DNA of 64,000 bases from the human T2T-CHM13v2.0 reference genome, Homo sapiens. Below, in pieces: positions 3,001 through 51,468 of this stretch (positions within the stretch are counted from its first letter, which is position 1; every line of letters begins with the position of its first letter). The stretch lies in the NCBI RefSeq assembly GCF_009914755.1, contig NC_060928.1; one strand, given 5' to 3'. Below the pieces are notes generated by a model, which was given only the letters and a program-made list of their open reading frames with translations, was not told the DNA's origin and made no database searches. The position numbers were made by a program, and so were the translations under genes.

Positions 3001-6000
3001 TGTCATCTTTATTGAAAACATGAACAACATAAATGTAAAGAGATATGTAGCTTCTGTAGAAAAAGATAATGTAACTCCATATGAAGTAATTTCTTTCACA
3101 AATGACTTGTCAGCAGAGCCAGATGTGTTTTTTCCAACAGGGAAAAACAATCCAAATAATATGGATCTAATTACCACTGGGCTCGATGATGGTTCTCTGG
3201 ACTATGTGTCAGAGAGAAATGCATTTTATATTGGAAAAGAAGGAAAGAGCCCCAAATCAAAAATACCTACCTTTGCTCAAGACAAAAATCTACAGAGTAT
3301 TTGGATCTCATACTCCCTTATCTACTGCACATGTCACTGAGAATCCATTGAAAGGAAATCCTGCAGAACTCAAAACTAAACAAAAATACCAAATGTTGAG
3401 CTCCAGAGAAGTAAACCCTGATTCTGACAAAGGTTATTTCTTTCTCAAAGATTATATTGCCAAGCCCTATGGAAAGTCACCCAGAATGATGATTCACCCC
3501 CTAGTAGATGAAAATAGAAATTTTTCTTCAAAGTTTTCAGATGATAAAACTCTGGAAGGCAACAGCCCAAGTGGAAGCGACATCATGATTATTCTTCATG
3601 ATGGTAAATAGATTGAACATATTCACATTCCAGATCCAGGAGCAATGGTAACCAGAGGAGAAAGCAGGACATTGCCAAGTGAAATCACTGATCTCACCAT
3701 GAGCTCAACTCCAGTCGTAAACAGAGACCACTCCTACAGGAGAAACACCTCATCCACTGCTTTTAACATCCTGAGGAGAGCCAAAGCCACCATGTCACCC
3801 AACTCTGAGTATCATAAGAATAAAACTTTCAAGGCAGAGAGTTACCATTCATAGGATGTCACTATTCCTTCAGTTGCATTTAATGTCAACCTTGATAATG
3901 AACTTCCCTTTGTTGATGAAGATTCTGAAGCTAAAAAACACAAGGACTCAACATCTTCTTCACTGATGGAAACGACTCACACTATGGCTGATACTACTCC
4001 TTTTTTCCATGAGAACAGTTATGAAGGGAGTGATTATATGCAATCTGATGAATACAATGTATTGTCTAGAGAATTCCCCTTTCTACAAGCAACTGAAAGT
4101 GTAATCCTCAGCCCTAATGCCTTTACTGACAATTCTGTCCTAATGAGAGATAACTCCTTGGCTGACTCTTCAGTGTCAATATCAGTAGTATCAGAGGCAG
4201 TGACCGAATACCTTGATGTCATTAATGGAACTGATATTTCAGAAAATCAGGTCCTTAAAATTCAAACAGACCTTCAGCCCCACTCCTCGGACCCAATTAT
4301 TCCTTCTACAAGTTCAACAACTATTAACAGGAATTCAACAAATGGTGATGTTGATTCATTATCCACTGTGAAGAGAGAAACTGTTGGGATTTCTAAATTT
4401 AAGACAGATGCTCATTCTTTGGGTATAATTATGAGAATACTTTCACCCAAACAAATGCACCCTTTCCCTTCCAAAATAAAAGAAATGGCTAAGCACTCTG
4501 TTGAGGAAGACACAGCTTCTAAATTCAACCTAAGTGATGTTACAAATGTAACAATCATCATTCCAACTTTGGAAAAAGCACTTCCTTTAACCTTTGAGAC
4601 CAGCACACTTCGGAAGAGCAATAACAGTGAGGAGGAGGAAGTTATTATTTCTGAAGCAGACAATATTTTTTTAGGAAATTCAAGTACTTTGAAAGATAAT
4701 TTTTTCACTGGTAAATTTAATATTTCTGCTGGACCCAAACTTCTTCCCAACTTAAAAATAATCTTTTCTGCTGATCCCACCATGTCTATGGAGAAGACTT
4801 TAAAGCTTAAGTCTAACAACTTTGCTCCTCCAGATAAAGACACAGGCTCAGAAGTTTTGTTCCATAATTCTTCCACTGGATCACACGGCCAAGCATGGAA
4901 ATCAACCCTTTCTCCTTCTGGTTTCACATCAACAGTGAGGTCATCTAAATATTCAGAACTTGATCCATTTGTCAAAATGAAAAATGATGCTACAACAAAG
5001 ACTAATAATTTTCCATTTGAGGAAAGAAATACTTCAACTCATAAAATCATCATTTCACCTGGTACCAATACTCCAACAACAGGAACACTGAATACTATTT
5101 TTAGTAAAAGATTTCCACACAGAAACTTTGCAGAGAAAGATACAATCCTATTACAGAAAACATATTAGATATTACTTTAGGTGAAAATATTCCAAATAAT
5201 GACCATGTAATAATCACTGTGCTTGATGACAGAGCTTTTGAGAATGTCACAAATGAATATGTCCTGGAACAACAGGAGAGAAAATACAACCCTATTATTA
5301 AAAAAAACTCCTCTCACTTACAACCTCAAACTATTTGGATCTCATGCATTCTACTCTAGTGCTGATGCCTCTGGACATCTATCTCAAGGAGCCCTAACTG
5401 TGACCAATACTAAAGACATACTGCAAAATTTGGTGTCTAGAGAAGAGCACAACAGTTCTGACCTTGATGATATTGTTCTCAAAATTTCCACTGGCAATTT
5501 GAGTTTTGAGGCTCCCAGCTCTATGACTCATCCCCTAACTCACACAAGTGAGAATTGTTACAAATTTCTAGGTAAAACCATTCTGGGCAGGGACACCCTA
5601 AGAGAATTTATATCATCACCATTGTCCCTGAAGACAAAAAGATGGAGTACACCCTTGTTCCAGACCCAGGAATAACAGCAACCATGGAAGAGGGAAGGAT
5701 GTTCCCAGATGAAACCATGGATCCCATTGTGATCCACTCTCCATCAAAAAATAAAAACCTGTTCTACAGGAAAGCCATTTCATCTGCTATTTATAAAACT
5801 GATATTCAACAAAGAGCAAAAAAATCTTACCATTCAGAGTAAACAATGTTGGAGGGAAAATTAATGTGACAGACATGACACACTCACAGGACACCAATTT
5901 TCCTTTGGCTGAGTTCATTGTCACTCTGATAGTGAACTTCCCTTCATTGATGAAGATACTGAAGTTTTAAATAGCAGAGCTTCAATCTCTCACCTATAAA

Positions 6001-9000
6001 TGCAATCCTTACTGTGGATGATACTATTCTTCTCTTCACTGAGGGTGGTTATGAAGAAGGTAATTCTAGCCCACCTGGAGAACACAATGTTAGGTCTACA
6101 GGATTCTTAGCTCTACAAATTCCTGGAAAAGCCATACTAATTCCTAAACTATCAATGGAAAACCTTGAAATATCTGGCCCAGTAACTAACAAATAACCCC
6201 TTGATTAATTATTCAATTGCATGGTCAGAGATGCTTGAGACAATGATTGAATATGCTAATTTTATTAAAGGTAGTGATATTTTCATTACAAACCAAATGG
6301 ACTTCAAGCCTCACTCCTTGGCCTCAACTAAATTTCCAACTGCAGACAATTCTACAAACAATGAATTTGATTCACCATCTTCTGTAAACAGAGAAACTAC
6401 CAACATTCCTAAAACTGAAACAGATGAAACATATTCTGAACTTCAGAGAATAATAAAAGCCTTTTCTCCTACAAGAATCTCTCAGCATAGGATCTATAAA
6501 GAAAGGAAAATAACCAATCCCTCTGATCAAGACGATCCAGCTGCTAAATTTGATATAAGTCACATTACAAATACAACAGATCTCAGTCTAGCTATGGAGA
6601 AACCCCTTCCCTCAGTTACTGAGCTTAATAGCCTCTCCACAAGTGACAACAATGTGAAAAAGAAAGTTTATATTTCTGAAGCAGGTAATTTTCTTCCAAA
6701 CGATGCAAGTACATTGAAAGATAATTCTTTCCCTGTTAAATTTGATGTTACTTTTGCTAAATCTGATACATCCCAATTTAAAAGGAATCTCTTCAATTGA
6801 TTCCATATTAACTTTTCCAGAAGTATCTAGGTCTAATGATCAAAGCTCTTCTCCTGAAGTCACTACCAAAGAAGGGACCATTATAGACACTCCCACTGGA
6901 ACTTATGGCCTACCATGGAAATCAACTCTTCTTCCTTCTAATTTCACAACATTAACGAGTTCTTCTAAGGACTGTGAATTTAATCCAGTTATCAAAATGA
7001 AAAAAGACACCACAACAACTAATAACAATATTACACCTGGAGAAAGGAATTCTTCATCTGACAAATTCAAACTTTCACCTGCTACCATTATTTCAACAAA
7101 AGGTATGAAAAATATTATTTATAATAGTAGATATGGGGACAAGACATTTATAGAGAAAGATATATCAATTGAAGTAGTTCCTTTTATAGAAAACATTTCA
7201 AAAGAGACAAATGACACCCCTTTGGCAGATGGAAATATTCCAAATAATGAGAATATGATAACTATTATGCCTGTTGACAGTGCCCTTGAATATGATGAAG
7301 ATAATGATGTCTTTGCACCAGTGGAGAAAAGAAGTGTTCTCCTTATAGAAGAGACCATAGTCACTAATAATTCCAATGCACTTGAGTCCCATGAATTCTA
7401 TGCCGGTGCTGCAGCCTCTGAAACTTTTTCTCAAGGAACTCCAATTGATATCAGTACCAGAAAAAAACACCAAATCTTGATCTTCAAAGAGGAAAATCCT
7501 AACAATGATATTACTGTTCTCAAAGGTTCTACTGCCAATTTTAACACCAAGACTCCAAGGTTCATGATTTATTCTCTAACTGATCCAAGTTGGAATTTTT
7601 TTGCCTGAATTTCTAGATGAAATAAATCTGAAAAATCATCCTCTAATTGGAGACAACACCATCGTCATTCTCCCTAAAAGCAAAAAAATGAAGTACCCTC
7701 TTGTTTTAGAACTAGAACTAATGTCAACAATGGGAGAGAGCAAGATGTTCACAGCTGATTCCATTGATCCTGTCATGATCACCATTCCTACAGAATACAG
7801 GGACCTGTTCAATAGGAAAGATTTCACCTGCTTTTTATAACAGTGTTGCCCCAAATGTAGCAAAGGCCACCATATCGGCCAGATTTGATCCAAATAAACT
7901 GAAAACAAATTTGGCAGATGCACTCCATTCACAGAGCAGCATTATTCCTTTGATTGAGGTCAATGTCATTCCTGATGACAATCTGTCCTTCATCAGTAAA
8001 GATACTAAAGAGGCAAACAACAGAGCTTCAATTATTTTTACATCTATGAATGAGCCAACCAGCACTGTGGTGGATTTCACTGTTCCTTCCACTGAAGGCA
8101 GTTATGTGAGTGGTGATTTTATGTTACCTGGAGAAGATAATGTTAAGTCTAGAGGATTCCAATCTCTGCTGAGAACCAACATGCTCCTTCCTGATTCCTT
8201 AAATGAAAATCCAGAAACCCCTGGCCTAATGAGAGATAACTCCTTTTCTGAATCTTCAATAACTAGGTCAGAAGAGTTAGAAAGAGCAACTGAATATGTT
8301 GGTGCCATTAATGGAGGCAATGTCCCAGAGAAGCAGGTTATAATAACTCAAACCAACATTCATTCCTATCCCTTGGCTTGGCAAGTTTCTCCAATTGAAT
8401 CCACATTTTCAAATAATCCCACAGATAGTGAAATTAACTTTTCTTTCTCTGTGAATGGAAATACTCCTGGAAATTATGAAACTGAGACTGATGAAATATA
8501 TTCCAAATCTCAAAGAGCAATAGAGAAAGCCTTTTCCCAGATAAAAGAGTCTCAAAATAGTGTCTACAAGATAAGAAAAATAGCTAATCTTTCTGATCAA
8601 GAAGATCCAGCTACTATGTTTAAATTAAGTCACTTTACAAATACAACAGTTCTCATTCCAGCTATATGGAAAATCCCTCCTTCAGCAACCAAGCTCAATC
8701 TTCTCTCCAACAGTGACAGTGATGTTGATGAAGAATTCCATATGTCTGAAGCAGGAAACTCATTTTCAGAAGATACCAGCAAACTAAAAGATGATTCTTT
8801 CACTGTGGAATTTGATGATACTTCTTTCAAATCTCAAGCACCTCCCAATTTAAAAGGAATCTCCTCAGTTTATTCCACATCAACTCTTTCAGAAGCATCT
8901 AGACCTAATGATCAAAGCTCTGCCTTTCATATTAGAGTCTCTAACACAGGCAGGTCCAGCACAAACACTCCAGCAAGATTACATGGCCTGCAATGGAGAC

Positions 9001-12000
9001 CAACTCTTCCTTCTGATTTCACAACATCCATGGATGCTCCCATATATTATGAACTCACTCCTGTTACCATCATGGGAAAAGATATCACAAAGAAGATTGA
9101 TTATAGCTTTCTACCTGAGGAAACAATTATTCCATCTGACCAAGTTATCATTTTGCCTATTACCATTACCTCTGAAAACTCCATGGCAAGCACTTTTAAA
9201 GAGAACATATTTAAGCACAAAGATTTTATAGACAGTGAGCAAGCTGCTGAGTATGAAAAAAATTATTTTATAAAAGACATTTCAGAAAGGATGGATGATA
9301 TTTCTTCGGAAGGCAAAATCACTCCAGCATATGTGGATGATATAATTACTACGTCTGATGACAGTGGTTCTGAATATGTCTCAGATAACTCTGTCTTGGA
9401 ATTAGAGGATAAAGCAAATAATTCCTTTATAAAAATGAGTACACTCAGATATTCCCCTAAGATGCATAGGTCTCAAGCACTATATACCACAGTGGCTGCT
9501 TCAGATAGTCTCTCTAAAGCAACATCATCAGAGTTCGAAGCTAAAGAAAAGTACCAAGCTATAATTCCTAAATAGAAAAACAAGAACTTTGACATCGAGG
9601 CCATTCTTTTCAAAGATCCCTATGCCAATGTCAAAACCAAAGCTCATAGACCCACAACTCACTTCCTAACCAATGCAAGTGAGAAGGCTTCTAGATTTTA
9701 TGACAAAACATCTGTCAAAAAAAGGCACCATAAATGGTGATGATGACATCATAATTCCCTCTGAATGCTCTGACTTTGGAAATAAAATAATTGAGTATTC
9801 CATTTTTTCATACGTGAAACCTGTAGTTGACAACAGAAAATTCACAACTGATACTACTAATCATGCTATCAAAAGTAGTTATAACTTGTTCAGGAAAAAC
9901 ATATCACCTGCCATTTATAAGACATTTACACCCAGTAGGGCAGACACTATCACATCCAGTATACCTGATTTTGCTGAAGATGAAACAAGTGTAGCTGCAG
10001 CATCTGATTGAAGGTTTAGTGGTTTTCCTTTAGCTTAGCTTTCTAGTGATGACATTTCCAATATGGATGAAAACCCAGCTCTTACTTTTTCTCCTTTGAG
10101 AAAGATGTCGTCCATTAAACCAAATGTTCCTGCTATCTCCACTGAGGACAGAAATAACATGGCCTTTCTAGCCTTCCATCAGAGAGTGTCATGTCTCTAA
10201 AACCTACGTCTGTTGGAGTACCTGAAACTCTCATCTTAACTGCTAATTCTCGTACTAAAGACACTGCAGCTCCCAGACTTGCAAAAAGTGAAAACTTACA
10301 TCATCATCCAACAATGTTAATTTCAACAGCATCGGAGCCTATGCCAACATATTTCGCTTACTTTAAGGAAGGTATTATCTCAGGAAGGCAAAACATTAAA
10401 AGTCAAATTGTTCTGAATGCTCTTCCATTGGTCTGTATTGTTCTCCAAGCTGCTTCCACTGACTCTTCAGACAATACTGGAGATGTCAAACCTAACACAT
10501 CTGCTACTCTTATTACCAGGTACAAAATTTTTGATATTGATGCCTCTGCCATTTGAAATTCAGAACCTAAGAAAACAAGCACCAAGTTTTCTGCTTTTGT
10601 TCCTAATGAATATGATGATCCGAATTTCTATCACACAAGAGAAATAGCTAAAGCTTCTACAGAGAAAAACACAGCTAGTGAATTTTAAGTCAATCACCTT
10701 ATAAATGTAAATATAATAACAGGAAATGATCTAGTTATCCAGATGGAAACAAACTCTATACAAAATGGCATTTTTAAAGCCTGTTTCTAAGGACTCTTTT
10801 CCTAGTCAAGTATCCCTGAAAAATCATAGATGTGCCAAATGACCTTCCTGGGGTTTTATTAAGAAATCTTCCTTTATTAGCAGTTTTCATGTTTTCACTT
10901 AAATGTAAGGAATATACTCTGGAACACATGTCAATAGATATAAATTTAATACTTTCCTTGGAAAAGACAAAATGTTTCAATTAGTGTAATAGATACTCCA
11001 ACAATGGAAGAAATTACTATTCAGATTAAATAAAACTTATCTATAGAATCTGATTCTTTGTCCTTTAGTCAGATAATGTCTTCAATGGGAATGATCGTTT
11101 GGTCAAAAATGAGTATATTATTATGTATTCCCTGGAGCACATAACTTCAGTTTCATCCTCAAGAGTGCTAAAATTCCTGCAGTTCCACCAGGATTTTCAC
11201 CATATGCTTTCTTCTCTTTGATGGATGACACATAGTCAATCTGAAGTGTTCTTTTGAAGGGCAATGTTTTAGAAAACATAGATAATGTGAATAGCATTCC
11301 CCTTAGAGAAGGAATAATTATGCTGCAATCAATGTGATCCTACCTCACAGCTATACTAGTGGAAGCAGAGTTAATGTGATCACAAAATTAATGCCTGAAA
11401 TTAAAGACTATTTGACAAATTAATATCAATGAAGATGATGTAATTATTTAAACTGACATATCTAATTGGAGATGAAGCGCTCATAAAAGTAAACATTTTA
11501 TAGCTTATTCCAACTCTCTTCATCATAACAAATACCTAGTCTTACAAGATATCTTCCAGCAAATATACAGCTAACCTCACCATCTTTTCTTTTCCTTTTT
11601 GTACACACAAAAAAAAACTTCACCAAAGTAGGTACCAAATCTTCTGTTTACAGCATGCTTTATTCTGAATTAAGCTTTATAAAAACTAAATGATAGGGGA
11701 CAAAAATAGAGGTTAAGAAAATCCTCCCACTAAGTAAGCTTACTGAGAGAATGACTGTCCCTGTGGCATTCTTTACTGGCCCAGGAACTGATGGTATTTC
11801 TGTTTAGAAACATATTTTTATAGAGAATTATGATATATCTGCAACCAGGCTAATCGTCTAAGACAGAAAGCTGAAAACTTTGAAGTTGAGTCCATATTTA
11901 ATAAATAATAACTATTTGTCCTTGAGATGGAACCCACTATTCAGGCTGATGTTGCTGCCCTTTCTCAGATTTAGTTGTGTCTGAGTATGAAAATTCAATT

Positions 12001-19843: not shown

Positions 19844-20463
19844 GCAAGTATTCGACTCAATAAATGCAGATGCTTAGGACTACAGGTCATGTAACAGATT
19901 TACGGAAACTTAGAAAAAAAAACCGCAGTGTAAGGGTCCCCCTAGTATCACAAAGTTTCAATATTCTAACAATTACTTAATGTAAAATTTTTCGTCCTAG
20001 CCTTCAGGGAGTATGAAGACAGAGCAATGTAGGGGCTCATTTCTACAACATTTAATGATGCATATCATTTAGTTAACAGTCAATATTATACTTAAGTGAG
20101 AATTAAGGATATGAAGAGAAGCAAATTAACCTCTCCAAAACATTACCATAGCCTAAAAAGTTCTCCCAAAATGCTTGTTCTAAGCAATTTTTTCATTAGT
20201 ATTTCATCAGTGATTCTCTTCTATTTAAAAAATTTTTAATCCTCATATAAGAATTAAGACAATTCAGTAATTGTTTAGCACCCACATGTAAGATACATAA
20301 GATTTATGATAGGGTTCTTGGCACATTGTTAGATACAAACTAAAGCAAAATGATATTTTACAAATATGCATATTTGTCAGAAAAATGTTCTGTAAACATA
20401 TACATCAATTTAATTTTCTTTCTGTTAAAATGTGTTTTCTGAATTTTTGTCCATGTTTTCCAG
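19844..20463 (+). other. CABS1: Probable CABS1 3'UTR intron (GC-AG type)
   Basis: AAG|GCAAGT donor at 19844; pyrimidine tract and CCAG| acceptor at 20463; AATAAA 125 nt further downstream. Confidence 0.6.
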
Positions 20464-27157: not shown

Positions 27158-28697
27158 TCTTGTGTAGCAATTTAGTGTTAAAACTTCATATAACTAACAG
27201 CTCATATTCCCTGAACTAGTTTCACTGAAATTAGAGTTTCAGGGTAAAATGCATTGATGCAATATTGGAATGAATTTCCTGGAGTCTTTAAATAAGAATA
27301 TATGTAAGAAGGGTTCATTCAGCTCTATTGTCATGGAGCTCTAGTAAACTCCTCTAAGGATAATGCTCTGTAACATGTTTTGGGAAATGCAGATATAGAC
27401 AATGGGAGGCAACCAAAGTTTTAAGCATTGGATTTGCATGTTAGATTGTATTTTAGAAAGATAATTTCGGTAAAAACGTAAAAGTTGGATGGGGTGATTG
27501 AGGAAACTAAAAACAGAGATACAACCAACTATGGCATTCATGTAAGAAAGAGAAAATAAAGCCCAAAAGAAGAGCAAGAATCAGTAAGAATAATTATCAA
27601 CATTTTAATATTTATCAAGGTATTCCAATCACACTGTTAAACAAAATGATGATGTAATAAAGCATGAGCTTAACTACACAGACTCCTCGACATGAACATT
27701 TTACGTTGAAATCTGAAAGCTCTGACCAGCCCTGTTAGGTATGGTAGGTGTTCCTAGCCAAGTTTTCTAAGCAAGAATCTTGTGTATTGGAATCCTGACA
27801 TTTTCTCTTAGTCTACAGAATTTTACATTAGAATCATTTGCAACAAAGGAAAGGAAAGAAAATTTATTTTTATATATGCATATATTTACTTGGTCAAAAG
27901 CATTATATTTCACCTAGATTAATGCCAGGAAATCTACTAATTGATAGAGCCACAAAAATGCCTAAGTCAGACTCTGTCTACAACTTATTCACCATAATGA
28001 TTAGCTAGAATGTCTCACAACAAAAGTTAAACATACATAAGAATATCTTGGTGCAGAGGAAAGAAAAAGCTGTGGAGAAAAAAAACTGGATTCAAATATT
28101 GGCTTTTGAAAATATGAGCAAGTTATTTATTTTCTCAAATTTCGGTGTCTTCCCATACAAAATTACCATCTATGAAAAAGCACACAGATATAGATCTACA
28201 TCCTGATTTATACTTTAGGTTGTTCTCATTGTTTTTAGTGATCCTAAAATAATTTTTAGAAAGTATGAGTAAACTGAAAATCCAGTAACCAAAGAGACGT
28301 TGCATCTAGTGCCCTCCAATTTACCTTTGGGATAAAAAGTCTAGAGGTCCTTCTCCGTTCTTTCATTCATCACAACATGAATTAATGCCAAGAGGATATA
28401 CCACTGTTAACAGCTAACTTGAAAGAAAAGCATTGAAAATCTGATTATCCACCAGTAGGTTTTCCAGATGATGTTTTTCTGTCTTTCTGGTAACAAACAA
28501 CATTTTCATGGAAATTAAAGCTTGCATCAAAGCAAATGTCAAACTACTACAATGCTCACATTTTGTATTGGTTAATAACTGTCACATTTCTTCTGAGCAA
28601 GGTTTCTTCTGTGATACAAAACTCTTGTGTAATAAAGAATTATTCTGAATCTAGTGGTAAAAGATGTATAGTAAGGGGTGTCAAAATGGTTCATTAG

Positions 28698-29154
<457 letters not shown>

Positions 29155-29720
29155 CCTTTTTCTCATTTTTATGTTAAGAAAATGTGAGAAAAGAGCCATT
29201 AATGTTTCAGTTGAGCTAATTTTATAATCTCTAAAAATTTACTTCAGCAATATTTTACTTTAAAAAGCCAAAAATGAACATCAAAGAAGCTATCATTTTC
29301 AAATACTTTCTCTCAGCTCAGAATACACATTAGCATATAATAGCCAAGCATTATATTATAAATAGCAGAGTACAGTTAAAAAGAAAGAAAACATTTTAAG
29401 CCTTGGGTTTCTGGTCAAGTTTCAATAATTATTGCTTTGCAGTAAAATGTTAAGTAATATCTGAAATGAAGGTAAGAGTGGATTCAATGTATCACATTTA
29501 AATTATAATGAATAAACCTTCACTTTTTCTAATACACAGATAATTAACCATGACGTTCCTGAAAAAAATGAAAAGGACAAATGTTAACTTTTAAAAATTA
29601 TATCTGTCCTTTTTTTGTTTCAGGAAATGATTTGGATTAACCCAGAGGCAAAGGCTAAAATAATAATAATAATATTTTGCTTCACAATATAGAAGGGATA
29701 AAGGAGAGAAAAAATAACCC

Positions 29721-29833
29721 TTTATAAGGCACGAATCACCTGTGCTCTTTCACTGAGCTTCCAGATTTCACAAGCTGAGGAAAGGCTGACATTGCTAGAC
29801 AAACAAAAAGAAGACCCCCTCATTACAGTATCT
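29721..29833 (+). promoter_or_regulatory. Candidate TATA box and non-coding exon 1 of the MUC7/SMR3-like gene
   Basis: TTTATAAG at 29721, about 100 nt loosely resembling SMR3A exon 1, possible donor CA|GTATCT at 29828. Confidence 0.35.
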
Positions 29834-31778
29834 TTTTTTTCTAATTTCAAAGGCTTAAAAATCCATTTTCTTTAGTCTTTGATTATTTGCAATTTCTAAT
29901 TAGTGGAAGTATCATGAAATCTCAGACTGCTTTCCACATAATTCCAACAGAAAAAAATGCATTTGAAAGGAAATACTGTAAACAGAAAAAAAATTGATAC
30001 TGATTTAATAAGTTCTCAGCCTACTAGTTTTATCCAATTTTAACAGTAAAATGGTAAGAATTTCAGGAAAAATGATAATGATAAAAATAGCCTGTCCTCC
30101 AGAATCTCAGAATCTTTAAAATGGCCCTTTCTAGACATAATGCCATATTTTAGTTTTGAACCTATAAAAATGAAAATGTTCTCAGTGGCAGAAAAATCAA
30201 TGTACTAAATGATGCAGGAAATCATTGGGCCTGATTTTATACTAGTTGATTGCCTCTATTTTATTTATCTCTTTTGTTACAAAGGGACCTACATATTAAT
30301 TTTGAAATGTGTCTCATATTTTGCTTGAGATTATGACTGTTTCATATGGAAGCAATACACTTGTTAATTTGGTTTTCTATTCTTATTTTTGGGGTATTGA
30401 AATCTGACCACTTCATCAATCAAAAAATATATCACCTTATTTTAAAAATTAGAAAAATAGGCCTCTGATAGGTTAGGTAATATGACCAGGATTTGGCAAC
30501 TAAAGCTCTTAGCTACTTTTCTTTGGGAGAAAAATGAATGTTAGCAAAAAAGAAAAAAGAGAGAGAGAGATTCATTATTGAAGTATCATGTGATTGCAAA
30601 ATTATGAAGAAATAATATTTTTATAATAGTCTTCAAATAATTACCATTTGAGATGGATTTGTTTTTTACATTTTGTTTGGATGAGAGAATTCAGAAGTAA
30701 TGATTGTATCAAAAAAATGAAAGTTTAACAGAAATACTAAATTTTAAGAGTTATTTGTTGATAATAAAATTAATGCTGATGGTAAAATTAAATGAGTATT
30801 TCATATTTCTAACAATATATGTATTTTAGGTTATGAGTTAACATTAAATTTTTCTGTCCAGTGTTTTAAGTATGTAAGGTGAAAATTAGAGTCAGAAGAT
30901 CATTTTAGTGGAAATTTCTTAGGCTTTTTGTGTGTTTAAATTATGATATCAATAGAATACCATAAATTTTTTTGAGAACAGAAAATCCACACATAAATTA
31001 CACAATCATCTCATATCTAACTTCATTTATGCTTACATTTTTCTGTCATCTATGTGGATAATTTACATATAGCATGATATTTAAACATTTACCTTATCAT
31101 TACAACATAAGCATTTTTCAAATTTCCACAAATTTGTATGATTATGAGTATTGATGATTATGAGCATTCATATTTTTAATTATGATTATGAGTATTCATA
31201 TTTTTAATTATCAGTAACACTGAAATGAACACAATTGGGTTTGTTCTATTGCTTAATTAGTTGAGGATGATATTTCCATAAATTAGGTTTTTAAGTTACA
31301 GGTATCAACATTTTCATGTTTATTTTGTGTATTGTTATACGGCTATTTAAAAAATTAGCTAAATTAATAGAACTAATGGTTGTGTAAAAGGTCACATACC
31401 TTACCACATTCTCAATCTTATTTTGGGTTTGCCTTCTTAAATAACTGTTTAGTAATCATAAAATAATAGATAAAAAGGTAGGCTCAATATTTGTTTTCTT
31501 GACAATTAAATGAGAAATTTTGTCAGGATTCTTCATTTACTTTATGTAGTGTTATTAGAATTCACTATTCTTAACCTTTGCTCCTATCTGTTGAACTCCA
31601 TGTTTTTCTTTTAAATTGTATGTTCTTCTTATGCCATAGATGTGATATATGCCATAGATATGCCATAATAGACATAAGTGTTTTTCCATTGGTTAAAATT
31701 TACCAAAAACAAATTTTTATTTCTTTTATTGTCTCATCACCAATGAAGCTGCTTGGTTCCAGAGGACCCAAAGACAAG

Positions 31779-34700
31779 ATGAAGGCTCTGATTTTGGTTG
31801 CAATCATTTTGATCTTTACTGCTTACCTCACAGTTATATAAAATATTTTACATATATTTATTTTCTTATTCAGTTCCTAATCATAAGGGGTACATTCAGT
31901 TCATTGTTTTATGCCAATGTAGCTTTATACTAAATGTACCCTGTTTTTATTTTATGTCTAATACCTTAATTTAAATTCCTCTATGATCTTTTGTTGACCT
32001 TAGAAAGCAATCTTAATATTTTTCTTTTCCCACATACTGATAGGTCTTTAGAATTCCAAACACATGTAAATTGGACATTGTAGTGTTGTGATTTTTAAGT
32101 TTTTAAGGTACTCTGATTCTACCTCTGCGGGAGCCCTCCTAAATAAAATTTAGTTCTTGGTGGACTCTCCAGAAAGAAAAAGCTGGGAAGAAGAAAACTG
32201 ATCATAAGAAACACTATAAAATGAATATGCAACCACATAAAGAATTCCACACGGATCAAATAAATTAAGAAAATCTAGACATGGTATTAACTTACAAGCA
32301 AGAGCATGTGCTTGCTATCCCATAATGTTTTTAGATTTGTTAACCTAACACCTGCACCTAAATAACATTATCTAGAGGATGAGAGGGACATTGTCTAAGA
32401 CTTACTGCTGCGAACATAATCCAGTATCATTTCATGAACAAACAGTGTCTTATGGGCACTGCTAATTATGGGAACTGCCTCTTCTTCTCCTTCCCCATGC
32501 TCAAATGCAGCCAGGATGATTTCCCATCCCATGAAAAACCCTCTTCCAGAACTTCTTTGGACCACTCATTTTTCTCTTCCATAAAAGACAGGTTGATTTT
32601 TTTTCTTACACCAACTTCATAAAGATGCTTGTAGTAGTAGCATAGTGGTCTCCAGGCTGGACACCTGAGTGAATGGTAGTTATAATGATAAAGGAAGCCA
32701 AATCTAGCAGTACTTGGCCACTGGAGACCAGGTGCCAACACACTCATGTGAATGTGGAGGAAAAGGAATCCTTCTGCTAAAAGGATTCAAGAAAAATACA
32801 TCATCCTTATTCCACAGACTGTGCACCCTTTAAACTGTTAGAATGTTGCTCATGCAATGATGACACCAGAAATTCTAAAACTGTATTTGATTCTATTCAT
32901 CCTAATGCAAACACATTTTGCCCTCATACCTGACTTACAATCACTACTCTTCCCAAAATGTCATACGTGCTCTGGATCTAATTTTTTAATGTTTGTGTTT
33001 TCCGTCTCATTTTAGTCTGTTGATGCGCATAAGAAAACACAAAGTAAGTTTTATTAAATTTCTAGTTATGTTTTTATATTTTCAATCATAATCAAAACTC
33101 ATTATGTCTGACAAGTTGATAAGGTACAAATATTTTATTTCCAACCAAAGAAAATGTTAAGAGACAGAGCCTGAATATCAAAGTTTAGGAGACAAATGGG
33201 AATAGTTGTGTAAGCACCAAAATCTTGCCTCAGTTCCCTGCCTCTTGATATGTATTAATCTGCAATGGGAGTAGGAAAACTTAGTTCATGAAATGCAATG
33301 CTTTCCTAGCTATCAGTTCCAAAATTAATATTTCTTTGTTCAATGTAGATATATTTTCCTTATACATGTTGATGGTTTTTTAAATAAGGCACATTTTCTA
33401 TGATCCTGCAAAAAAGCGAAAACTCTTTATTTTCTTAAACTCAGTGGTGTCCAGTAAAAAAGGGGAGAAAATCCAAAATCATCTGGAAAGACTTTTCAAA
33501 ATTCCAAATCCCTGTGTCCACCCTCTGCCATTTCTAATTGTCATAACCCCACCCCACGTCAGACTGGAGGTGGAATGAACAGAAGGATGTGTTACCTGAA
33601 AATACTTGTCATAACATCCTGTTAGATCCCCCTTCTCCTTTTTCCCCACAACCAGACATGTACTCTAAAGGAAGCCTTAAAACCAAAAAAAAAAAAAACC
33701 AAAAAAAGTTATCCTGCCTCTAATGCTGTGGAATATACGTTTCTAAGTTTAATGACCCAAATTGTTCTAACATTCAGAAGAAAAAAAAAAAATTCCAAAC
33801 CTGCCTTGAAAATTTCAGCAATGTACTTCTTCTCCATTCTCTTTTTTTCTCCACCCCTTCAGCTCCATCACCTTATAATTCTCAATGTGAAATAATTCTG
33901 AGAAATGGCCAGACACCTGTAACAGGATTGGTCTGACAACCTCCATTCAGTGAAACCTAGACCAATCTGTGAATATTCAATTTGTCTCAAACACTGATCA
34001 TTCCATAGTATCCCTGAAATCAGCTACTCACATCTACCTAACTGTTGGAGTTGTAAGTAGGGAAGACAGAAGCTGCAGAGTAGGATATTTTTCTCACTCA
34101 CTGATCACCGATTTATATTATTATATCACGTTTCCTTTTGATTGCCTAAAGGTAAATGTAGCCACATATACCAACGCATCAATTTGGGAAATATACATGA
34201 GATCTCACATCTACAGAGCAATAAAAATCTTGAAAAGGGTCAAGAGAAGAGAAAACAACATTGTTAGAATGTTAAAGCAGGCTTCTAGTTAAATTAATTT
34301 ATCCTAAAGGTTGAGTGGCTCCTGGGTCTTCCAGTAAAGATCTACGGGAGTATGAGATCTATTCAGTGAACAGACAACACTGTCAGAGTCACATGGCATG
34401 GGAGCACCAGAGCCCGAGGAATGAGTCTTCCCCCAGTAGTCCACACTATCAGACACTCCAAATTCAGTCTAAAAGATATTGGCATTAGGAATATGTACAA
34501 CACAAAAATAGATGAGAACTAATGCTTCATAGAGAGGAAGGTGAAGCATCATATTTGAACTTCAAGAATTAGCCTCTGCCAGTGAAGACGAAATGAGAGA
34601 ACTGAGTCTAATCAGAAATGCTCAGGGAATGTCATGTCAAAAGTCTGTAACTGAAACGAATTAAATCAAAGTGTCCTTTGTGTTATTTAATTAAGACTTT

Positions 34701-35841
34701 CACAGGGTAGAAATGCACCGACTCAAGGTAATTCCCGCTTTTAGTGTCTGTGATTCTGTGCAATGAGTCAGCCACATAGATTCATGGAATGTTTTATCAA
34801 TCTCATTGTATTTTCAGCTCTATGAAAGGGGACAATGAAAAGTTTGTCTTTATTCAGAGCAGTAAAATGCATTATACTTTTTTACAGGATGGAAATTAGA
34901 ACAGATTTCTCAACAAGTGCTCCACAAAACACTAAAACACTAGTATGAAGAAATGCTACAAACACACACACAAAATTTCCATGATTAAGTAAAATTGAGA
35001 AATATCGATATCCCTTGGATATTCTAAATATCCACTATATATTATGTTAACAATTGCAATAAGTCCTACAGTAAAGAAACATGTTTTACTTTACCCAAAA
35101 CCTTTCCAAAGTTATTTGGTCACCAAAATTTTCACAACATAATGCCTATGATGGAACGTATTTTGGAAAAACCTGTAATAAAACTATCAAACTTTGAGCA
35201 CAGTAGGGACACAGTTTACTTCATTTATATCTCACCCAAAATCATAATTAAAAATGCTGTATGAGGTGGGTATATTATTCTATCAACTTACTTATGAAAT
35301 GAATTTAGAATAATTGTATAAATGTAAATGGTAATATAAATACATATTTAAAGCTTGACTTTAGTTTATGCATCCCATCTGTGTAAAAACAATTATTTGC
35401 TTGTTTTGTGTTCTCTCTCTGAAATCTAGCCAAAGTTCTGAAAAGAATTTTAAACCACTGAAACAAAGTCCTGGAAAGCCAAACTACAAGCAGTTTATAA
35501 AATTTGAAACAGTTCCTGTGGTTCCCCTTGGTCTCCATCATCTCTTCCACCATCAAAGCCCTCATCACCCCAACCACCCACATTGTCCATCATCTGGACC
35601 TACACAACCACCTGAGAATGATGTAAACCCTAGTTCTCAAGCACTGCTAGCCACCTCTGCTCCTGCAACTGTTGTGGCCACCACGGCCACTCCCATTGCC
35701 TCTACCAGCAAAACTACAGGTGCCATTTCCAACACCACAGCTCCCAGCAGGCTCCAATCTGAGGCTGTCACAAACACTGCGGCAACTGAGTCTAACCCAG
35801 CTGAGGTGGCTGACACTGCCCTTGCCAACCAGCAACAATAG
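31779..35841 (+). pseudogene. MUC7/SMR3-like SCPP secreted protein (pseudo)gene: signal exon 31779-31832 and mature exon ~35425-35841
   Basis: ccag|aggacccaaagacaagATG MKALILVAIILIFTAYLT|GT mirrors SMR3A exon 2 (18 codons, phase 0). The downstream ORF is His/Pro-rich and then Thr/Ala/Ser-rich, and follows a pyrimidine tract. Confidence 0.7.
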
Positions 35842-36626
35842 TTTTAGTATATTCTGCAACTGTCTGAGACTACACTACCAAATCATGAGAAGATAAAAGC
35901 AAACCAAGAAAATGTTTTCCAAAATATTTTCTGAGTAACTTTGAGATGTGTCTGGCCACAATCAAAGAGAAAGATAAACAAATAGTTCCTAACTCTGGCA
36001 TATGAATTAGAAGCTCTTATTCCCCCTCTATTTCACAAACTACATTTGGTCTCCTTAAGTATAAGTCATATCTATAAACCTGATGCTGGCTGATTCCCAC
36101 AAAAGAAACACACAACTAAAGGATCACCAAATGTGCACAAGATTTTGCTTTTTTATCCCAGTTCTAAAATATGTTTTATTTTCCTGGAAAAGCTTACTTT
36201 TAATTAGGGTTTTCATAAATTAAAGTTAGTTTGGACTTCAATATTTATTAAATTTCACATAGTGCACATTCCACATAGGAAGTCTTCCTCACTCTTTCAG
36301 CATCCGCCAACAATAATAAGACAAAAAAGGAGTAAAGATTGTAGGAAATATTATAATTATCCTTGGGAATAGTAATATAAACAAAACCCAACCAATACAA
36401 GAGCTCTCTTGCTATAAACAATGACTGAATCACACACATCATGATATAACATGATCATTCAGAAACAATATCAAAGAAGTAGGAGATCATATATTCATCT
36501 TATTTTTGAATATAGCAGCTTCTAATTATAAATATAAATGGGAAGAATTATCCTAACTATAGAATGTAAAAATCACAATGATAGATGCCAACTGTTGAAC
36601 ACTTAGTTCAGATGTTGGAGCATTAA

Positions 36627-36941
<315 letters not shown>

Positions 36942-38855
36942 TTGAATCTAATTTAATACTCATATCAACCCTGTGAAACCAGTCTTGTGGACTTCTTTTT
37001 AAAGATGAGGGTACTGAGGCTATGAGAATTTATGTGACTTTCCAAAGACCACAAAGTCATAAATGGTAGACCAGTCTTCAAATTCACATCCATTTAACTC
37101 TAAAGTTGCAGCTTCTAATGTCCTACGCAGCATTTGGCTATTTTAAAACAATTCGAGAGGGTAGAGTTTATGTACCTTTAGTTAATGGCTCATGATATTT
37201 TGTTCTGTTTTTACAGATCCTGAAAAACTGAATATTGATATATTTGTGATCACCTTCTCTCAGCATTTTGTTTTAACAAAAATATAGGAAGAGGTATAAA
37301 AATACAGAGATATGATTATTTCTGTTTTTTCTTTCATCTTGCTACACCATAAAATCTTTCAAAGATAAACCTGATTTATGCATTTGATTATATGTGTATT
37401 GATCTCTTCTTTATTCCTGTAGAATGACAGTGCTAATACCAGCACATTTATCCTATCAAATGTTTCTGTAACACACAAAGTAGGTGTCAAAAAAAAGGAA
37501 ACTCTTCACAGACTAAAAAAAAAGGTGTTTAAAAACCACCCCATATAATGTTAATATATTACAAATCTTACAAATCAATTTTCTTTTTGATATAAAACAT
37601 AAGTACATGTAGTCATAATAAAACACATCTATAAACATACAATTATATTTTACATAAATGCACAATATAAAATTACACATATGAGAGCTACAAAAAAAGG
37701 TGAAGAAATGGCAGTCCTACTCTCAAAGGGATCATAGTCTAAGTGAGACATTTTCAAAAAGCACAGAAAAAAGTAAGTTAAATTCCCACAGATCTACAGA
37801 TATTCTTTCCCAATTGCTACTTCATCCACTAAAGAAGTATTTTCACCAGAGATTGTTTAACCAAAATGTTGTACCATCTCATATATCATTTCATCCAGTG
37901 ATATATTAATATTAGGTCAATATCTAGTTGATAAATTCACCCCCGTGATTTAGTAAAACTTACCTAGATTTAGGACAGGGAATATAAGAGTACAAATACA
38001 AGAGCATTATTCCTCACAACACAAGTTTTCCTGGATATTGATGGGTATGAAAAAAGAGGAGAGGAATAAGAAGGAAGAAGAGAAAAGTAGAATCATGTGA
38101 GAAACCTGAAGGAAAAAGAGCAAACAGCAGATTAAAAAGGGAGCATTCAGAGGTGAGAGAACTAAGAAACTTACATGAAAGCCAAGCAGAGAAAAAGGTT
38201 TCAGAAAGAGGGTTAAACACTTTAGAAGAGAGAGTAAGAAGGAAAATAAAAATAGAAGTATAAAGAGCAAATGCTTGGAAATGGCAAATGTTTGGAAATA
38301 AGAGTTTCATCTGTTGCCATTTCTCTCTTCAGATTTTCCTATAAGTCCTGTTTTTGCTATTCACCCATACTTCTTTGTCTCCTATCCCAGGTTCAGTGTT
38401 AATTAGGTACATCTCAATTTCCATTTCATTGCCTTGACTCACACATCTTTATCATTCTGAAAGAGCCTTCCAATTATCTCCACTTACCCTACTTGACTCA
38501 ATTACCAACTTCTTACTGAAATCTTACATGACTCATGGATATCAGCTTGACATTGCTCTGTCCTTCAGTCTTCATATCTAGACCATCAAAAGGATCTGTT
38601 GATTATGTCCCATGAAAATATCTTTATTCTGTCCACTTATCCATCCATAGCCCCTTTGCCACTACGCAAGTCTATCTGGACAACTGTAGTAACAGCCTTT
38701 TAACAGGTTTTTCTCTCTTAAGTTTCACTTGCTAAGATCCACTCTCCATACTGCTCTAGGGCTCAGAGTCGTCAAAATAAAAAATACTCTTCAGAGAACT
38801 CTATCTGAATAAGTGAATTAGGTACTGAAATAAGAAGTGATTTCTTCATCTAGAC

Positions 38856-50508: not shown

Positions 50509-50649
50509 ATACAGACAACTGCAACAGGTGCCACCACCCACAAAAGACAACACTACCCTCGTAACTACTGCTTCTACTACCCAAAAATAAGAATTTCAAC
50601 ACTACTTCCAAGAGACTTTTAGATAAAATCACTTCCATTTTTGGATGAG

Positions 50650-50655
50650 AATAAA
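50650..50655 (+). terminator. SMR3A polyadenylation signal
   Basis: First AATAAA after the stop codon. Confidence 0.7.
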
Positions 50656-51468
50656 GATTTCCAAAGCACTGAGCTTTTGGGAGAAATATCTTAGAAATTG
50701 TGAAACGATCCCCATGAACCTTTATATCAGTAGGGGAAAATAAAGAATTGAGCAACAATATGAAGTATCCACTGTTATCAGAGCCAATAGTTTACACCCC
50801 AGTTATGTCACCTAAATGAATATTAGTGCTAACAGAGCCTGGCCTTGTCCCATGAAGCCAAAAAAGTAAATTAAGGAAAAATGCAATGAGACACTTGGAC
50901 TTGAACCTTAGAGTTACAAAGTTAGAAGAGTAGGCAACAAGATGCCCTCTTCAGTATGGCAACCCATCATACAATTACAAAGCCCAAAATAAGTGTTAAT
51001 AGATACTAAAATGAAAGAATCTTAGCCCTTACCATAGCTTGCCCCATAAAAATTCCTGAGTACCATCTGATCACTGCTTATAAATAGTTGCAGAGAAGAA
51101 ACACCATTCTAGCAAACCTAAATATCTGAGATGTGAATCACAAGTCTTAGAGTTTGATATGAAAAAATCATTTTCTAAGCTAAGATAGAGATAGGAAATG
51201 GTTTCAGATAGCAATAAGAAGAAGCTGATGGCTGAGATTTCCAAGTTTCTACTGCATCTATTTGTTGATGTTTGAGTCAGAAGTATTATGATACGACTAT
51301 TTAGGAAATGGCCTCATGATGTCATGAGAGCTTTATCTTTCCATTCCATGTTTGACTTTTTTCTTCAGGACACTTAACTTTCCACATTGCCATCAAACAC
51401 TTATAAATTAAAACTTCTTAAGACACCTAAAGTAAGCACACAATTTTTATTTGTGTTTAATGCTCTCC

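What the first reader, a model, noticed from the sequence alone, without database searches (positions are those of the whole stretch)
29721..35935. Unannotated MUC7/SMR3-like salivary gene between CABS1 and SMR3A
Seen: exon 31763-31832 copies the architecture of SMR3A exon 2 (cag|agg...aagATG, 18-codon hydrophobic MKALILVAIILIFTAYLT, phase-0 GT). An ORF 3.6 kb downstream reads SSQS-SEKNF...LHHLFHHQSPHHPNHPH...TSAPATVVATTATPIASTSKTT: a cationic/His-rich segment followed by a PTS mucin-like segment. Joined, this gives a 22-aa signal (LT|SSQS, compare SMR3A FT|PGES) and a ~156-aa secreted protein. Its organisation recalls MUC7 (HHQSP, histatin-like N-terminus). A TATA/exon 1 candidate lies at 29721.
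Basis: partly seen in the sequence, partly recalled or inferred. Interest (0 to 1): 0.85.

Follow-up and report, generated by a model that had tools for sequence, protein, structure and literature searches.

The report
Human relic of carnivore mucin gene
Between CABS1 and SMR3A the human genome still holds both coding exons of a small secreted-protein gene that is predicted as a gene in ferret, stoat, otter and raccoon dog, but the human copy lacks the splice site that joins them, so it is most likely a dead gene and not a new salivary protein.

Summary
Exon 31763-31832 is an SCPP-type signal-peptide exon. The ORF ending at 35841 is a genuine coding exon. Six proteins in a 1.8-billion-protein library match it (E 5e-8 to 4e-4) and align end to end. 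Named relatives come from otter, stoat and raccoon dog. By eye they match the ferret "MUC_C1-like" gene that Pajic et al. 2022 listed as a ferret-only mucin without a precursor. The carnivore proteins find this ORF as their only human match. Their first 18 residues find exon 2.

The human copy looks broken. The carnivore exon 2/3 junction falls at 35425, where human has AA, not AG. The nearest AG (35428-9) shifts the frame to a stop after three codons. The exon 2 donor GTTATA scores below most random GTs.

The locus is not MUC7- or SMR3-like in its mature part and has no PTS tandem repeats.

Verdict: an unannotated human ortholog, probably a unitary pseudogene. Interest is moderate.

The parts
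29723..29728 (+). TATAAG, candidate TATA box of the putative promoter
   Evidence: Sequence. The spacing to a CTCTTTCAC element resembles SMR3A, but the alignment is not significant (36/500 and 52/500 shuffles reach it).
29752..29827 (+). Putative untranslated exon 1 (inferred, weak)
   Evidence: Placed by analogy with SMR3A exon 1. The donor ACA|GTATCT at 29828 sits at the 51st percentile of all window GTs. No ortholog evidence.
31763..31832 (+). Exon 2: 16 nt of 5'UTR plus an 18-codon signal peptide (CDS 31779-31832), phase 0
   Evidence: CDS identity is 30/54 to exon 2 of SMR3A, of SMR3B and of MUC7, against 32/54 for SMR3A vs MUC7. It is the best six-frame match in the window to the first 18 residues of four orthologs (10-12 of 18; next best 8).
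31833..31838 (+). Degenerate donor GTTATA of intron 2
   Evidence: 16th percentile of 2595 window GTs in an approximate PWM. The four paralog exon-2 donors, all GTAAGT, score at or above the 95th percentile.
35368..35370 (+). In-frame ATG inside intron 2, the only ATG in frame with the exon 3 ORF
   Evidence: The exon 3 reading itself contains no Met.
35423..35424 (+). Position of the ancestral intron 2 acceptor. It reads AA in this human sequence
   Evidence: The carnivore proteins switch from the exon 2 part to the exon 3 part exactly at the codon homologous to 35425. The human bases are AA. The polypyrimidine tract upstream is intact.
35428..35429 (+). First AG after the polypyrimidine tract. 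Using it shifts the frame and gives a stop at 35439-35441
   Evidence: 90th percentile of 4258 window AGs. The AG at 35434-5 also runs into that stop.
35444..35445 (+). Third AG, the only canonical acceptor that keeps the ORF frame. It would delete the first 7 residues
   Evidence: 55th percentile, no polypyrimidine tract directly upstream.
35425..35841 (+). Exon 3 coding homolog: 138 codons plus TAG, His-rich then T/S/A-rich, no frameshift or internal stop
   Evidence: Six library hits at E 5e-8 to 4e-4. Collinear alignment A1. Reciprocal best hit in the whole human genome, E 1e-14 and 1.6e-13. No tandem repeat inside the CDS.
36219..36224 (+). First ATTAAA downstream of the stop, a candidate poly(A) signal
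   Evidence: There is no AATAAA between 35842 and 36700. Inferred only.

Best explanation
This is the human ortholog of a small three-exon SCPP-cluster gene. The same gene is predicted as protein-coding in Carnivora: ferret LOC101688609 'integumentary mucin C.1-like', plus stoat, otter and raccoon dog.

In carnivores (inferred from their protein sequences):
- Exon 2 supplies an 18-residue signal-peptide part.
- Exon 3 supplies a secreted protein with an acidic serine cluster (SSESSEE, S-x-E type), a His/Arg-rich middle and a T/S/A/P-rich tail.
- Mustelids have expanded the tail into short tandem repeats, which is why it was called a mucin.

In human, both coding exons are still open but intron 2 can no longer be removed in frame:
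- The acceptor position reads AA.
- The next AG, 5 nt downstream, puts a stop after three codons.
- The donor is far from consensus.

The locus is therefore most likely a unitary (unprocessed) pseudogene that makes no mature protein, whether or not it is still transcribed.

Shown: homology, orthology, exon anatomy and the absence of the AG. Inferred: that AA is the derived state, that the gene is not expressed, and the carnivore protein's biochemical role.
For: Homology and orthology:
- Six proteins match the exon 3 reading at E 5e-8 to 4e-4 and 38-61% identity. They align collinearly from the first residue to the NQQQ end.
- Named members are from Lontra canadensis, Mustela erminea and Nyctereutes procyonoides.
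- The ferret sequence printed in Pajic et al. 2022 sequence file S1 is, by eye, the same family.
- Raccoon dog P0002 and an unnamed member, P0005, hit only this ORF in the 3.1-Gb human assembly (E 1e-14 and 1.6e-13; next best 0.44 and 0.0012).
- The N-terminal 18-mers of four members find exon 2 at 31779 (10-12 of 18; next best 8).
- The paper places all 28 of its lineage-specific mucins, the ferret gene among them, between CSN3 and AMTN.

Breakage:
- The carnivore junction maps to 35425, which is preceded by AA.
- ORF-only relatives read K before the first Ser, as human does.
- The AGs at 35428-9 and 35434-5 both lead to a stop.
- The exon 2 donor is at the 16th percentile of window GTs, against the 95th or higher for the four paralog exon-2 donors.
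- The S-x-E cluster is reduced from SSESSEE to SSQSSEK.
- The RefSeq table supplied with the finding has no gene model here.
Against: - Both ORFs are intact. Exon 3 has 138 codons with no stop or frameshift and ends within 3 codons of the carnivore stops.
- Under a rough neutral model with recalled rates, this is expected with probability 0.16 at 3% lineage divergence and 0.02 at 6%. Either the loss is fairly recent or some constraint remains.
- One canonical AG (35444-5) keeps the frame.
- I could not see any ortholog DNA. That the ancestral state was AG, and that the ancestral donor was strong, are inferences from protein junctions and from paralogs.
- The splice PWM uses recalled approximate frequencies.
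- No expression or population data could be consulted.
- Only one human haplotype (T2T-CHM13) was read.
Confidence: 0.72

Rival explanations
1. The locus is a functional human gene. Exon 2 is spliced to the third AG (35444-5). The product is a secreted protein of about 149 residues that lacks the first seven residues of the ancestral mature part.
For: - That AG is in frame and the whole downstream ORF is intact.
- The exon 2 ATG and its hydrophobic core are intact.
- The intact ORFs are somewhat unexpected for an old pseudogene.
Against: - The third AG scores at the 55th percentile of window AGs, has a purine-rich run upstream, and lies behind two AGs that are closer to the polypyrimidine tract.
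- The donor is at the 16th percentile.
- This isoform would lose the S-x-E cluster.
- There is no RefSeq model in the supplied table.
Confidence: 0.12
2. A single-exon ORF is translated from the intronic ATG at 35368. Its first ~20 residues are the translated polypyrimidine tract and are hydrophobic, so they could act as a makeshift signal peptide.
For: The ATG is in frame, and the following residues are rich in I, L, F, C and V.
Against: - No promoter evidence inside intron 2.
- The hydrophobic run is the expected by-product of a pyrimidine tract.
- Orthologs use exon 2 instead.
- No signal-peptide predictor was available here.
Confidence: 0.04
3. The dead allele is only one human haplotype. 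The acceptor is polymorphic and an intact AG allele segregates in people.
For: - Only T2T-CHM13 was read.
- The CABS1-SMR3A interval carries old human-chimpanzee shared polymorphisms according to bioRxiv 10.1101/2025.11.10.687682 (passages).
Against: - The donor is also degenerate, so at least two lesions would have to be polymorphic together.
- By recalled coordinate offsets, the reported shared SNPs lie about 6.7-7.3 kb upstream of the acceptor, not at it.
Confidence: 0.05
4. The ORF and the signal-like exon are chance products of composition.
For: - 35634-35841 is open in several frames on both strands and is GC-richer than its surroundings.
- The signal-exon pattern turns up once in 10 of 30 shuffled windows.
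Against: Collinear orthologs, reciprocal best hits and the exon 2 match.
Confidence: 0.01

Closest known systems
Ferret LOC101688609 'integumentary mucin C.1-like' (Ferret_MUC_C1-like in Pajic et al. 2022, Sci Adv, PMC9417175), with its stoat (P0008), otter (P0003) and raccoon dog (P0002) counterparts
   Same: - 18-residue exon 2 part (12 of 18 identical to stoat and otter).
- The mature part is collinear from the Ser-rich start through the PPEN...SSQA block to the NQQQ end.
- No Pfam domain.
- Location in the CSN3-AMTN interval (paper passage).
   Different: - Mustelid proteins carry tandem copies of a short T/A/N-rich unit (6.5 x 25 bp in ferret, table S1; visible in P0003 and P0008). Human and raccoon dog have none.
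- Human lacks the AG acceptor and has a degenerate donor.
- Human has SSQSSEK where the others have SSESSEE-type clusters, and its His-rich segment is shorter.
SMR3A / SMR3B / OPRPN (PROL1), the neighbouring human genes
   Same: - Same strand and cluster, and the same three-exon plan.
- Exon 2 holds 14-16 nt of 5'UTR plus ATGAA and 17-18 codons, and ends in phase 0 after ...ACA.
- 30/54 exon 2 CDS identity to SMR3A and to SMR3B.
- The C-terminal T/S-rich part aligns weakly with the OPRPN tail (Smith-Waterman z 4.3, 0 of 500 global shuffles).
   Different: - No PROL5-SMR Pfam match, while SMR3A exon 3 scores 1.5e-11.
- hhalign finds nothing.
- No proline-rich PYGPGR-type repeats.
- No collinear DNA similarity.
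- With stricter scoring and local shuffles, the exon 2 DNA alignment is not significant.
MUC7
   Same: - Same cluster and exon plan.
- 30/54 exon 2 identity.
- His-rich segment before a T/S-rich segment, and a shared HHQSP pentamer.
   Different: - No 23-residue PTS tandem repeats.
- The N-terminal alignment score was reached by 7 of 500 shuffles, and the whole-exon score by 93 of 500.
- hhalign finds nothing.
- The human genome search with the ORF does not find MUC7.
Statherin and histatins (same 4q13 cluster). This comparison is recalled, not tested
   Same: An acidic Ser cluster directly after the signal peptide, followed by a basic/His-rich segment, as in the carnivore members (for the family; the statherin and histatin features are recalled).
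   Different: Those genes spread the mature part over several small exons (recalled). No sequence comparison was run here.

Membership tests
SCPP gene cluster family (P/Q-rich group, 4q13) | Location inside the cluster, same orientation as neighbours | tested here: met
   Lies between CABS1 and SMR3A on the + strand (supplied annotation).
SCPP gene cluster family (P/Q-rich group, 4q13) | Exon 2 carries the end of the 5'UTR and the signal peptide and ends in phase 0 (definition recalled from Kawasaki and co-workers) | tested here: met
   31763-31832: 16 nt UTR plus 18 codons, phase 0. Same layout as SMR3A, SMR3B, OPRPN and MUC7.
SCPP gene cluster family (P/Q-rich group, 4q13) | S-x-E phosphorylation motifs near the start of the mature protein (recalled definition) | tested here: inconclusive
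   Orthologs have SSESSEE-type clusters. Human keeps one S-x-E in SSQSSEK. Phosphorylation was not tested.
Carnivore MUC_C1-like orthogroup (ferret LOC101688609) | Collinear sequence similarity over signal part and mature part | tested here: met
   E 5e-8 to 4e-4, alignment A1, exon 2 match. The ferret sequence itself was compared by eye only.
Carnivore MUC_C1-like orthogroup (ferret LOC101688609) | Reciprocal best hit and shared genomic neighbourhood | tested here: met
   The only human match of P0002 and P0005. The ORF's only library matches are this family. Ferret gene stated to lie between CSN3 and AMTN (paper passage). Exact neighbours in carnivores were not seen.
Mucin (functional definition used by Pajic et al.) | Tandem exonic PTS-rich repeats | tested here: not met
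   TRF finds no repeat in 35425-35841. T+S is 23.9% overall and 29.5% in the last 78 residues.
PROL1/SMR3 family (Pfam PF15621 PROL5-SMR) | Match to the family profile | tested here: not met
   No hit for P0001 even at E 10, or for six relatives at E 1. The positive control, SMR3A exon 3, scored 1.5e-11.
MUC7 | Sequence similarity of the mature protein, with a histatin-like domain plus 23-residue repeats | tested here: not met
Intact human protein-coding gene | Canonical splice sites that join the coding exons in frame | tested here: not met
   AA at the ancestral acceptor. The first two AGs lead to stops. The donor is at the 16th percentile. One weak in-frame AG remains.
Intact human protein-coding gene | Transcription and translation | not testable with these tools
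   No RNA-seq, CAGE or proteome data available here.

The most novel reading that the evidence does not exclude
The carnivore 'lineage-specific' SCPP mucins are not carnivore inventions. They are old genes, shared at least by primates and carnivores, that the human lineage lost. This locus is the missing repeat-less precursor of the ferret MUC_C1-like mucin. A second, giant relic lies just upstream of CABS1 (see noticed in passing).

The boldest version is that the human copy is not fully dead. An intact-acceptor allele, the in-frame third AG or the intronic ATG would still yield a secreted His-rich glycoprotein. In that case the cluster of human-chimpanzee shared polymorphisms, which by recalled coordinates lies about 1-1.6 kb upstream of its TATA box, would mark balancing selection on its expression.
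Probability: 0.08. Interest if true: 0.75.

Novelty: new member of a known kind. Interest (0 to 1): 0.45.

Why it matters
- It adds an unannotated locus to one of the most studied human gene clusters (milk, enamel and saliva proteins).
- It gives the ferret MUC_C1-like 'orphan' mucin what the 2022 study did not report for it: a repeat-less counterpart outside mustelids. That fits the study's model, in which mucins arise when a secreted precursor gains T/S-rich repeats.
- It changes the reading from 'new in ferret' to 'old gene, lost or crippled in human'.
- It also offers a nearby candidate gene for the shared human-chimpanzee polymorphisms reported in this 'intergenic' interval. That link is only a lead.

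Tried and rejected
- DNA paralogy to neighbours. blastn of 28000-38000 against the rest of the window found only dispersed repeats outside the exons. Sensitive blastn against SMR3A, SMR3B, OPRPN and MUC7 gave no collinear hits. A permissive local alignment of exon 2 to SMR3A gave z 6.8, but stricter scoring with local shuffles gave z 0.0-1.6. I therefore rest exon 2 homology on anchored identities and on the orthologs.
- Exon 1 and promoter homology to SMR3A and SMR3B was not significant.
- Pfam found nothing for the ORF or for six relatives.
- The word-index protein search with the human ORF found nothing at near lengths (0 of 48 candidates). 'longer' and 'shorter' were not tried.
- hhalign of the family against exon 3 of OPRPN, MUC7 and SMR3A found nothing.
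- The profile search added only two more unnamed ORF fragments.
- Literature. Four searches and passages of PMC12457735 gave no mention of a gene or pseudogene between CABS1 and SMR3A in human. The figures and PDF supplements of those papers were not visible and might show one.
- The species behind P0004-P0007, P0009 and P0010 are unknown, so the spread of the family beyond Carnivora and human cannot be named.
Full report
**What is in the sequence**

The window is human T2T chr4:73,656,001-73,720,000.
- An acceptor cag|AGG opens an exon at 31763.
- The ATG is at 31779 and 18 hydrophobic codons follow.
- The exon closes at 31832 in phase 0, before GT.
- 3.6 kb downstream, a stop-to-stop ORF runs 35365-35841 (158 codons). 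From 35425 it reads as quoted: a Lys/His-rich first half, then a T/S/A/P-rich second half, 138 codons to a TAG.
- TATAAG sits at 29723.

**Is it more than chance**

Taken alone, the evidence is modest.
- The ORF is the 14th longest of 7741 in the window, behind L1, CABS1 and another ORF field.
- Its second half is GC-richer and is open in several frames.
- A signal-exon pattern was defined as AG, a short leader, ATGA[AG]N, then 14-19 uncharged and mostly hydrophobic codons, then GT. It occurs twice in the real window, here and in SMR3A. It occurred once in 10 of 30 shuffled windows.

**Architecture compared with the neighbours**

I fetched SMR3B, OPRPN and MUC7 from the same assembly and located their signal exons.
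- All four paralogs and the candidate share the layout: 14-16 nt of leader, ATGAA, 17-18 codons, phase 0.
- Candidate CDS identity is 30/54 to SMR3A, to SMR3B and to MUC7. That is about what SMR3A and MUC7 share with each other, 32/54.
- Nothing else aligns at the DNA level.
- A permissive alignment of exon 2 (z 6.8) did not survive stricter scoring with local shuffles.
- Exon 1 and promoter similarity to SMR3A and SMR3B is not significant.

**The mature part is not SMR3-, PROL1- or MUC7-like**
- There is no Pfam hit, while SMR3A exon 3 hits PROL5-SMR at 1.5e-11.
- The ORF finds only itself in the human genome (next best E 0.13).
- Smith-Waterman against MUC7's N-terminal part was reached by 7 of 500 shuffles, and against the whole exon by 93 of 500.
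- The best pairwise signal is with the T/S-rich tail of OPRPN (z 4.3, 0 of 500). Global shuffles do not control for local composition.
- hhalign of the family profile against exon 3 of OPRPN, MUC7 and SMR3A gives nothing.
- There is no tandem repeat in the CDS.

**Orthologs**
- The exhaustive HMMER search of 1.84 billion representatives returned six proteins at E 5e-8 to 4e-4 and 38-61% identity.
- Together with a stoat protein found later, they align with the human reading from its first residue to its NQQQ end.
- Three have names: otter ('transcription factor SOX-1-like', evidently a misnomer), stoat ('integumentary mucin C.1-like isoform X3') and raccoon dog (unnamed product). The rest are nameless ORF fragments on 1-4 kb contigs.
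- The sequence file of Pajic et al. 2022 (PMC9417175) prints 'Ferret_MUC_C1-like_218'. By eye it is the same protein as the stoat one.
- Their table S1 lists it as GeneID 101688609 with SignalP 0.94, a 21-residue signal peptide and no Pfam domain. It stands alone in its identity-by-descent group and has 6.5 copies of a 25-bp repeat.
- The paper says all 28 such mucins lie between CSN3 and AMTN. Sections 9 and 20, read in full, name no precursor for this one.

**Orthology tests**
- Raccoon dog P0002 and unnamed P0005 hit this ORF, and essentially nothing else, in the 3.1-Gb human assembly (E 1e-14 and 1.6e-13; next best 0.44 and 0.0012).
- The first 18 residues of four full-length members have their single best six-frame match in the window at 31779 (10-12 of 18; next best 8).

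**Why the human copy looks dead**
- In the full-length carnivore proteins, the 18-residue exon 2 part is followed directly by the residue homologous to human 35425.
- A canonical junction there needs AG at 35423-4. Human has AA.
- The ORF-only relatives that read through the intron end show Lys before the first Ser, as human does. Lys can be AAG or AAA, and I could not see their DNA.
- With the phase-0 donor, the first AG after the intact polypyrimidine tract (35428-9) gives three codons and a stop.
- The second AG (35434-5) gives one codon and the same stop.
- Only the third AG (35444-5) is in frame.
- I scored the sites with an approximate splice PWM built from recalled frequencies:

| Site | Percentile among window GTs or AGs |
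|---|---|
| Exon 2 donor ACA\|GTTATA | 16th of 2595 GTs |
| Four paralog exon-2 donors (GTAAGT) | 95th or higher |
| AG at 35428-9 | 90th of 4258 AGs |
| AG at 35444-5 | 55th |
| Five annotated acceptors | 97.6th or higher |

  (all)
The default product would be about 21 residues long.
- The S-x-E cluster at the start of the mature part is also eroded, from SSESSEE to SSQSSEK.

**What argues the other way**
- Both ORFs are intact, and the human stop is within three codons of the carnivore stops.
- A rough neutral model with recalled rates keeps both ORFs open with probability 0.39 at 1.5% lineage divergence. The figure falls to 0.16 at 3% and 0.02 at 6%.
- If this is a pseudogene, the loss is probably not ancient.
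- A weak in-frame AG and an in-frame intronic ATG (35368) leave small doors open.
- No expression, population or ortholog DNA data were available.

**How the gene probably works where it is intact (inferred)**

It encodes a secreted, disordered protein. An N-terminal acidic Ser cluster resembles the phosphorylated clusters of other SCPP proteins (recalled). A His/Arg-rich middle follows, then an O-glycosylatable tail. In mustelids the tail has been lengthened by tandem duplication of a short T/A/N-rich unit. Raccoon dog and human show the repeat-less form.

**Comparison with what is known, and novelty**

The locus is a member of the SCPP cluster by position and exon plan. It is the ortholog of the carnivore MUC_C1-like gene. 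It is not a member of the PROL5-SMR family or a MUC7 relative by any test I could run, and it is not a mucin by the repeat criterion.

Four literature searches and passages of the 2025 GBE paper on this cluster (PMC12457735) turned up no mention of it in human. The figures and PDF supplements of those papers were not visible to me.

I file it as a new member of a known kind, most likely a unitary pseudogene (confidence 0.72).

**Context worth following**
- A 2026 bioRxiv version (10.1101/2025.11.10.687682; passages only) reports five linked human-chimpanzee shared polymorphisms spanning 822 bp 'between CABS1 and SMR3A'. Two of them are at hg19 chr4:71,210,336 and 71,210,970.
- Using recalled hg19/hg38 gene coordinates, which reproduce the CABS1-SMR3A spacing of the window to within 15 bp, those two map to about window 28,100-28,800. 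That is roughly 1-1.6 kb upstream of the candidate TATA box. The mapping is unverified.
- The stretch upstream of CABS1 holds a much larger relic of another carnivore 'lineage-specific' mucin (see noticed in passing).

Noticed in passing
window 143-10553 (+), continuing upstream in L013 (G000:C4:73636001-73646000), about window -19616 to -15364: A field of very long ORFs lies on the + strand just upstream of CABS1. No gene is listed there in the supplied table.
- ORF lengths are 1065, 437, 153, 204, 296, 598 and 132 codons inside the window.
- Lys-rich and then T/S/A-rich ORFs in shifting frames lie upstream of the window.
- No Pfam hit for the four ORFs scanned.
- There are divergent internal repeats (BLASTP E 4e-10 and 2e-9).
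- There is no similarity to the CABS1 protein, and the region is unique in the genome.
- By eye, the Lys-rich ORFs are collinear with 'Walrus_MUC17-like_7112' and 'Ferret_MUC5ac-like_1384' printed in Pajic et al. 2022. Table S1 says the walrus model ends in a CABS1 Pfam domain.

This looks like a frameshifted relic, 30 kb or more, of a second carnivore 'lineage-specific' SCPP mucin. CABS1 might be its 3' part.
   Followed up: partly
about window 28,100-28,800 (mapping from hg19 by recalled offsets, unverified): bioRxiv 10.1101/2025.11.10.687682 reports five linked human-chimpanzee trans-species polymorphisms in the CABS1-SMR3A interval. They are assigned to a MUC7 skin eQTL and said not to lie in a known regulatory element. 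By my mapping they sit roughly 1-1.6 kb upstream of this locus's candidate promoter.
   Followed up: partly
window 50509-50660 (SMR3A 3'UTR): One frame of the SMR3A 3'UTR reads a T-rich stretch, and another frame then ends in ...LLDKITSIFG plus a stop. This matches the C-terminal tails of OPRPN (...FWQKLFAIFG) and of ferret SMR3A as printed in the Pajic supplement. Human SMR3A therefore seems to be truncated before an ancestral PTS-plus-IFG tail.
   Followed up: no
window 19844-19849: The annotated CABS1 intron begins with GCAAGT, a GC-AG intron, according to the supplied exon coordinates and the sequence.
   Followed up: no
window 35890-35931: Just after the stop of the relic ORF, one frame reads ...KANQENVFQNIF plus a stop. 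The same stretch is read in two of the unnamed relatives (P0006, P0009). It faintly recalls the F-x-x-(L/I)-x-x-IF(G) tail of the PROL1/SMR3 family. This is a lead for distant common ancestry and was not tested.
   Followed up: no
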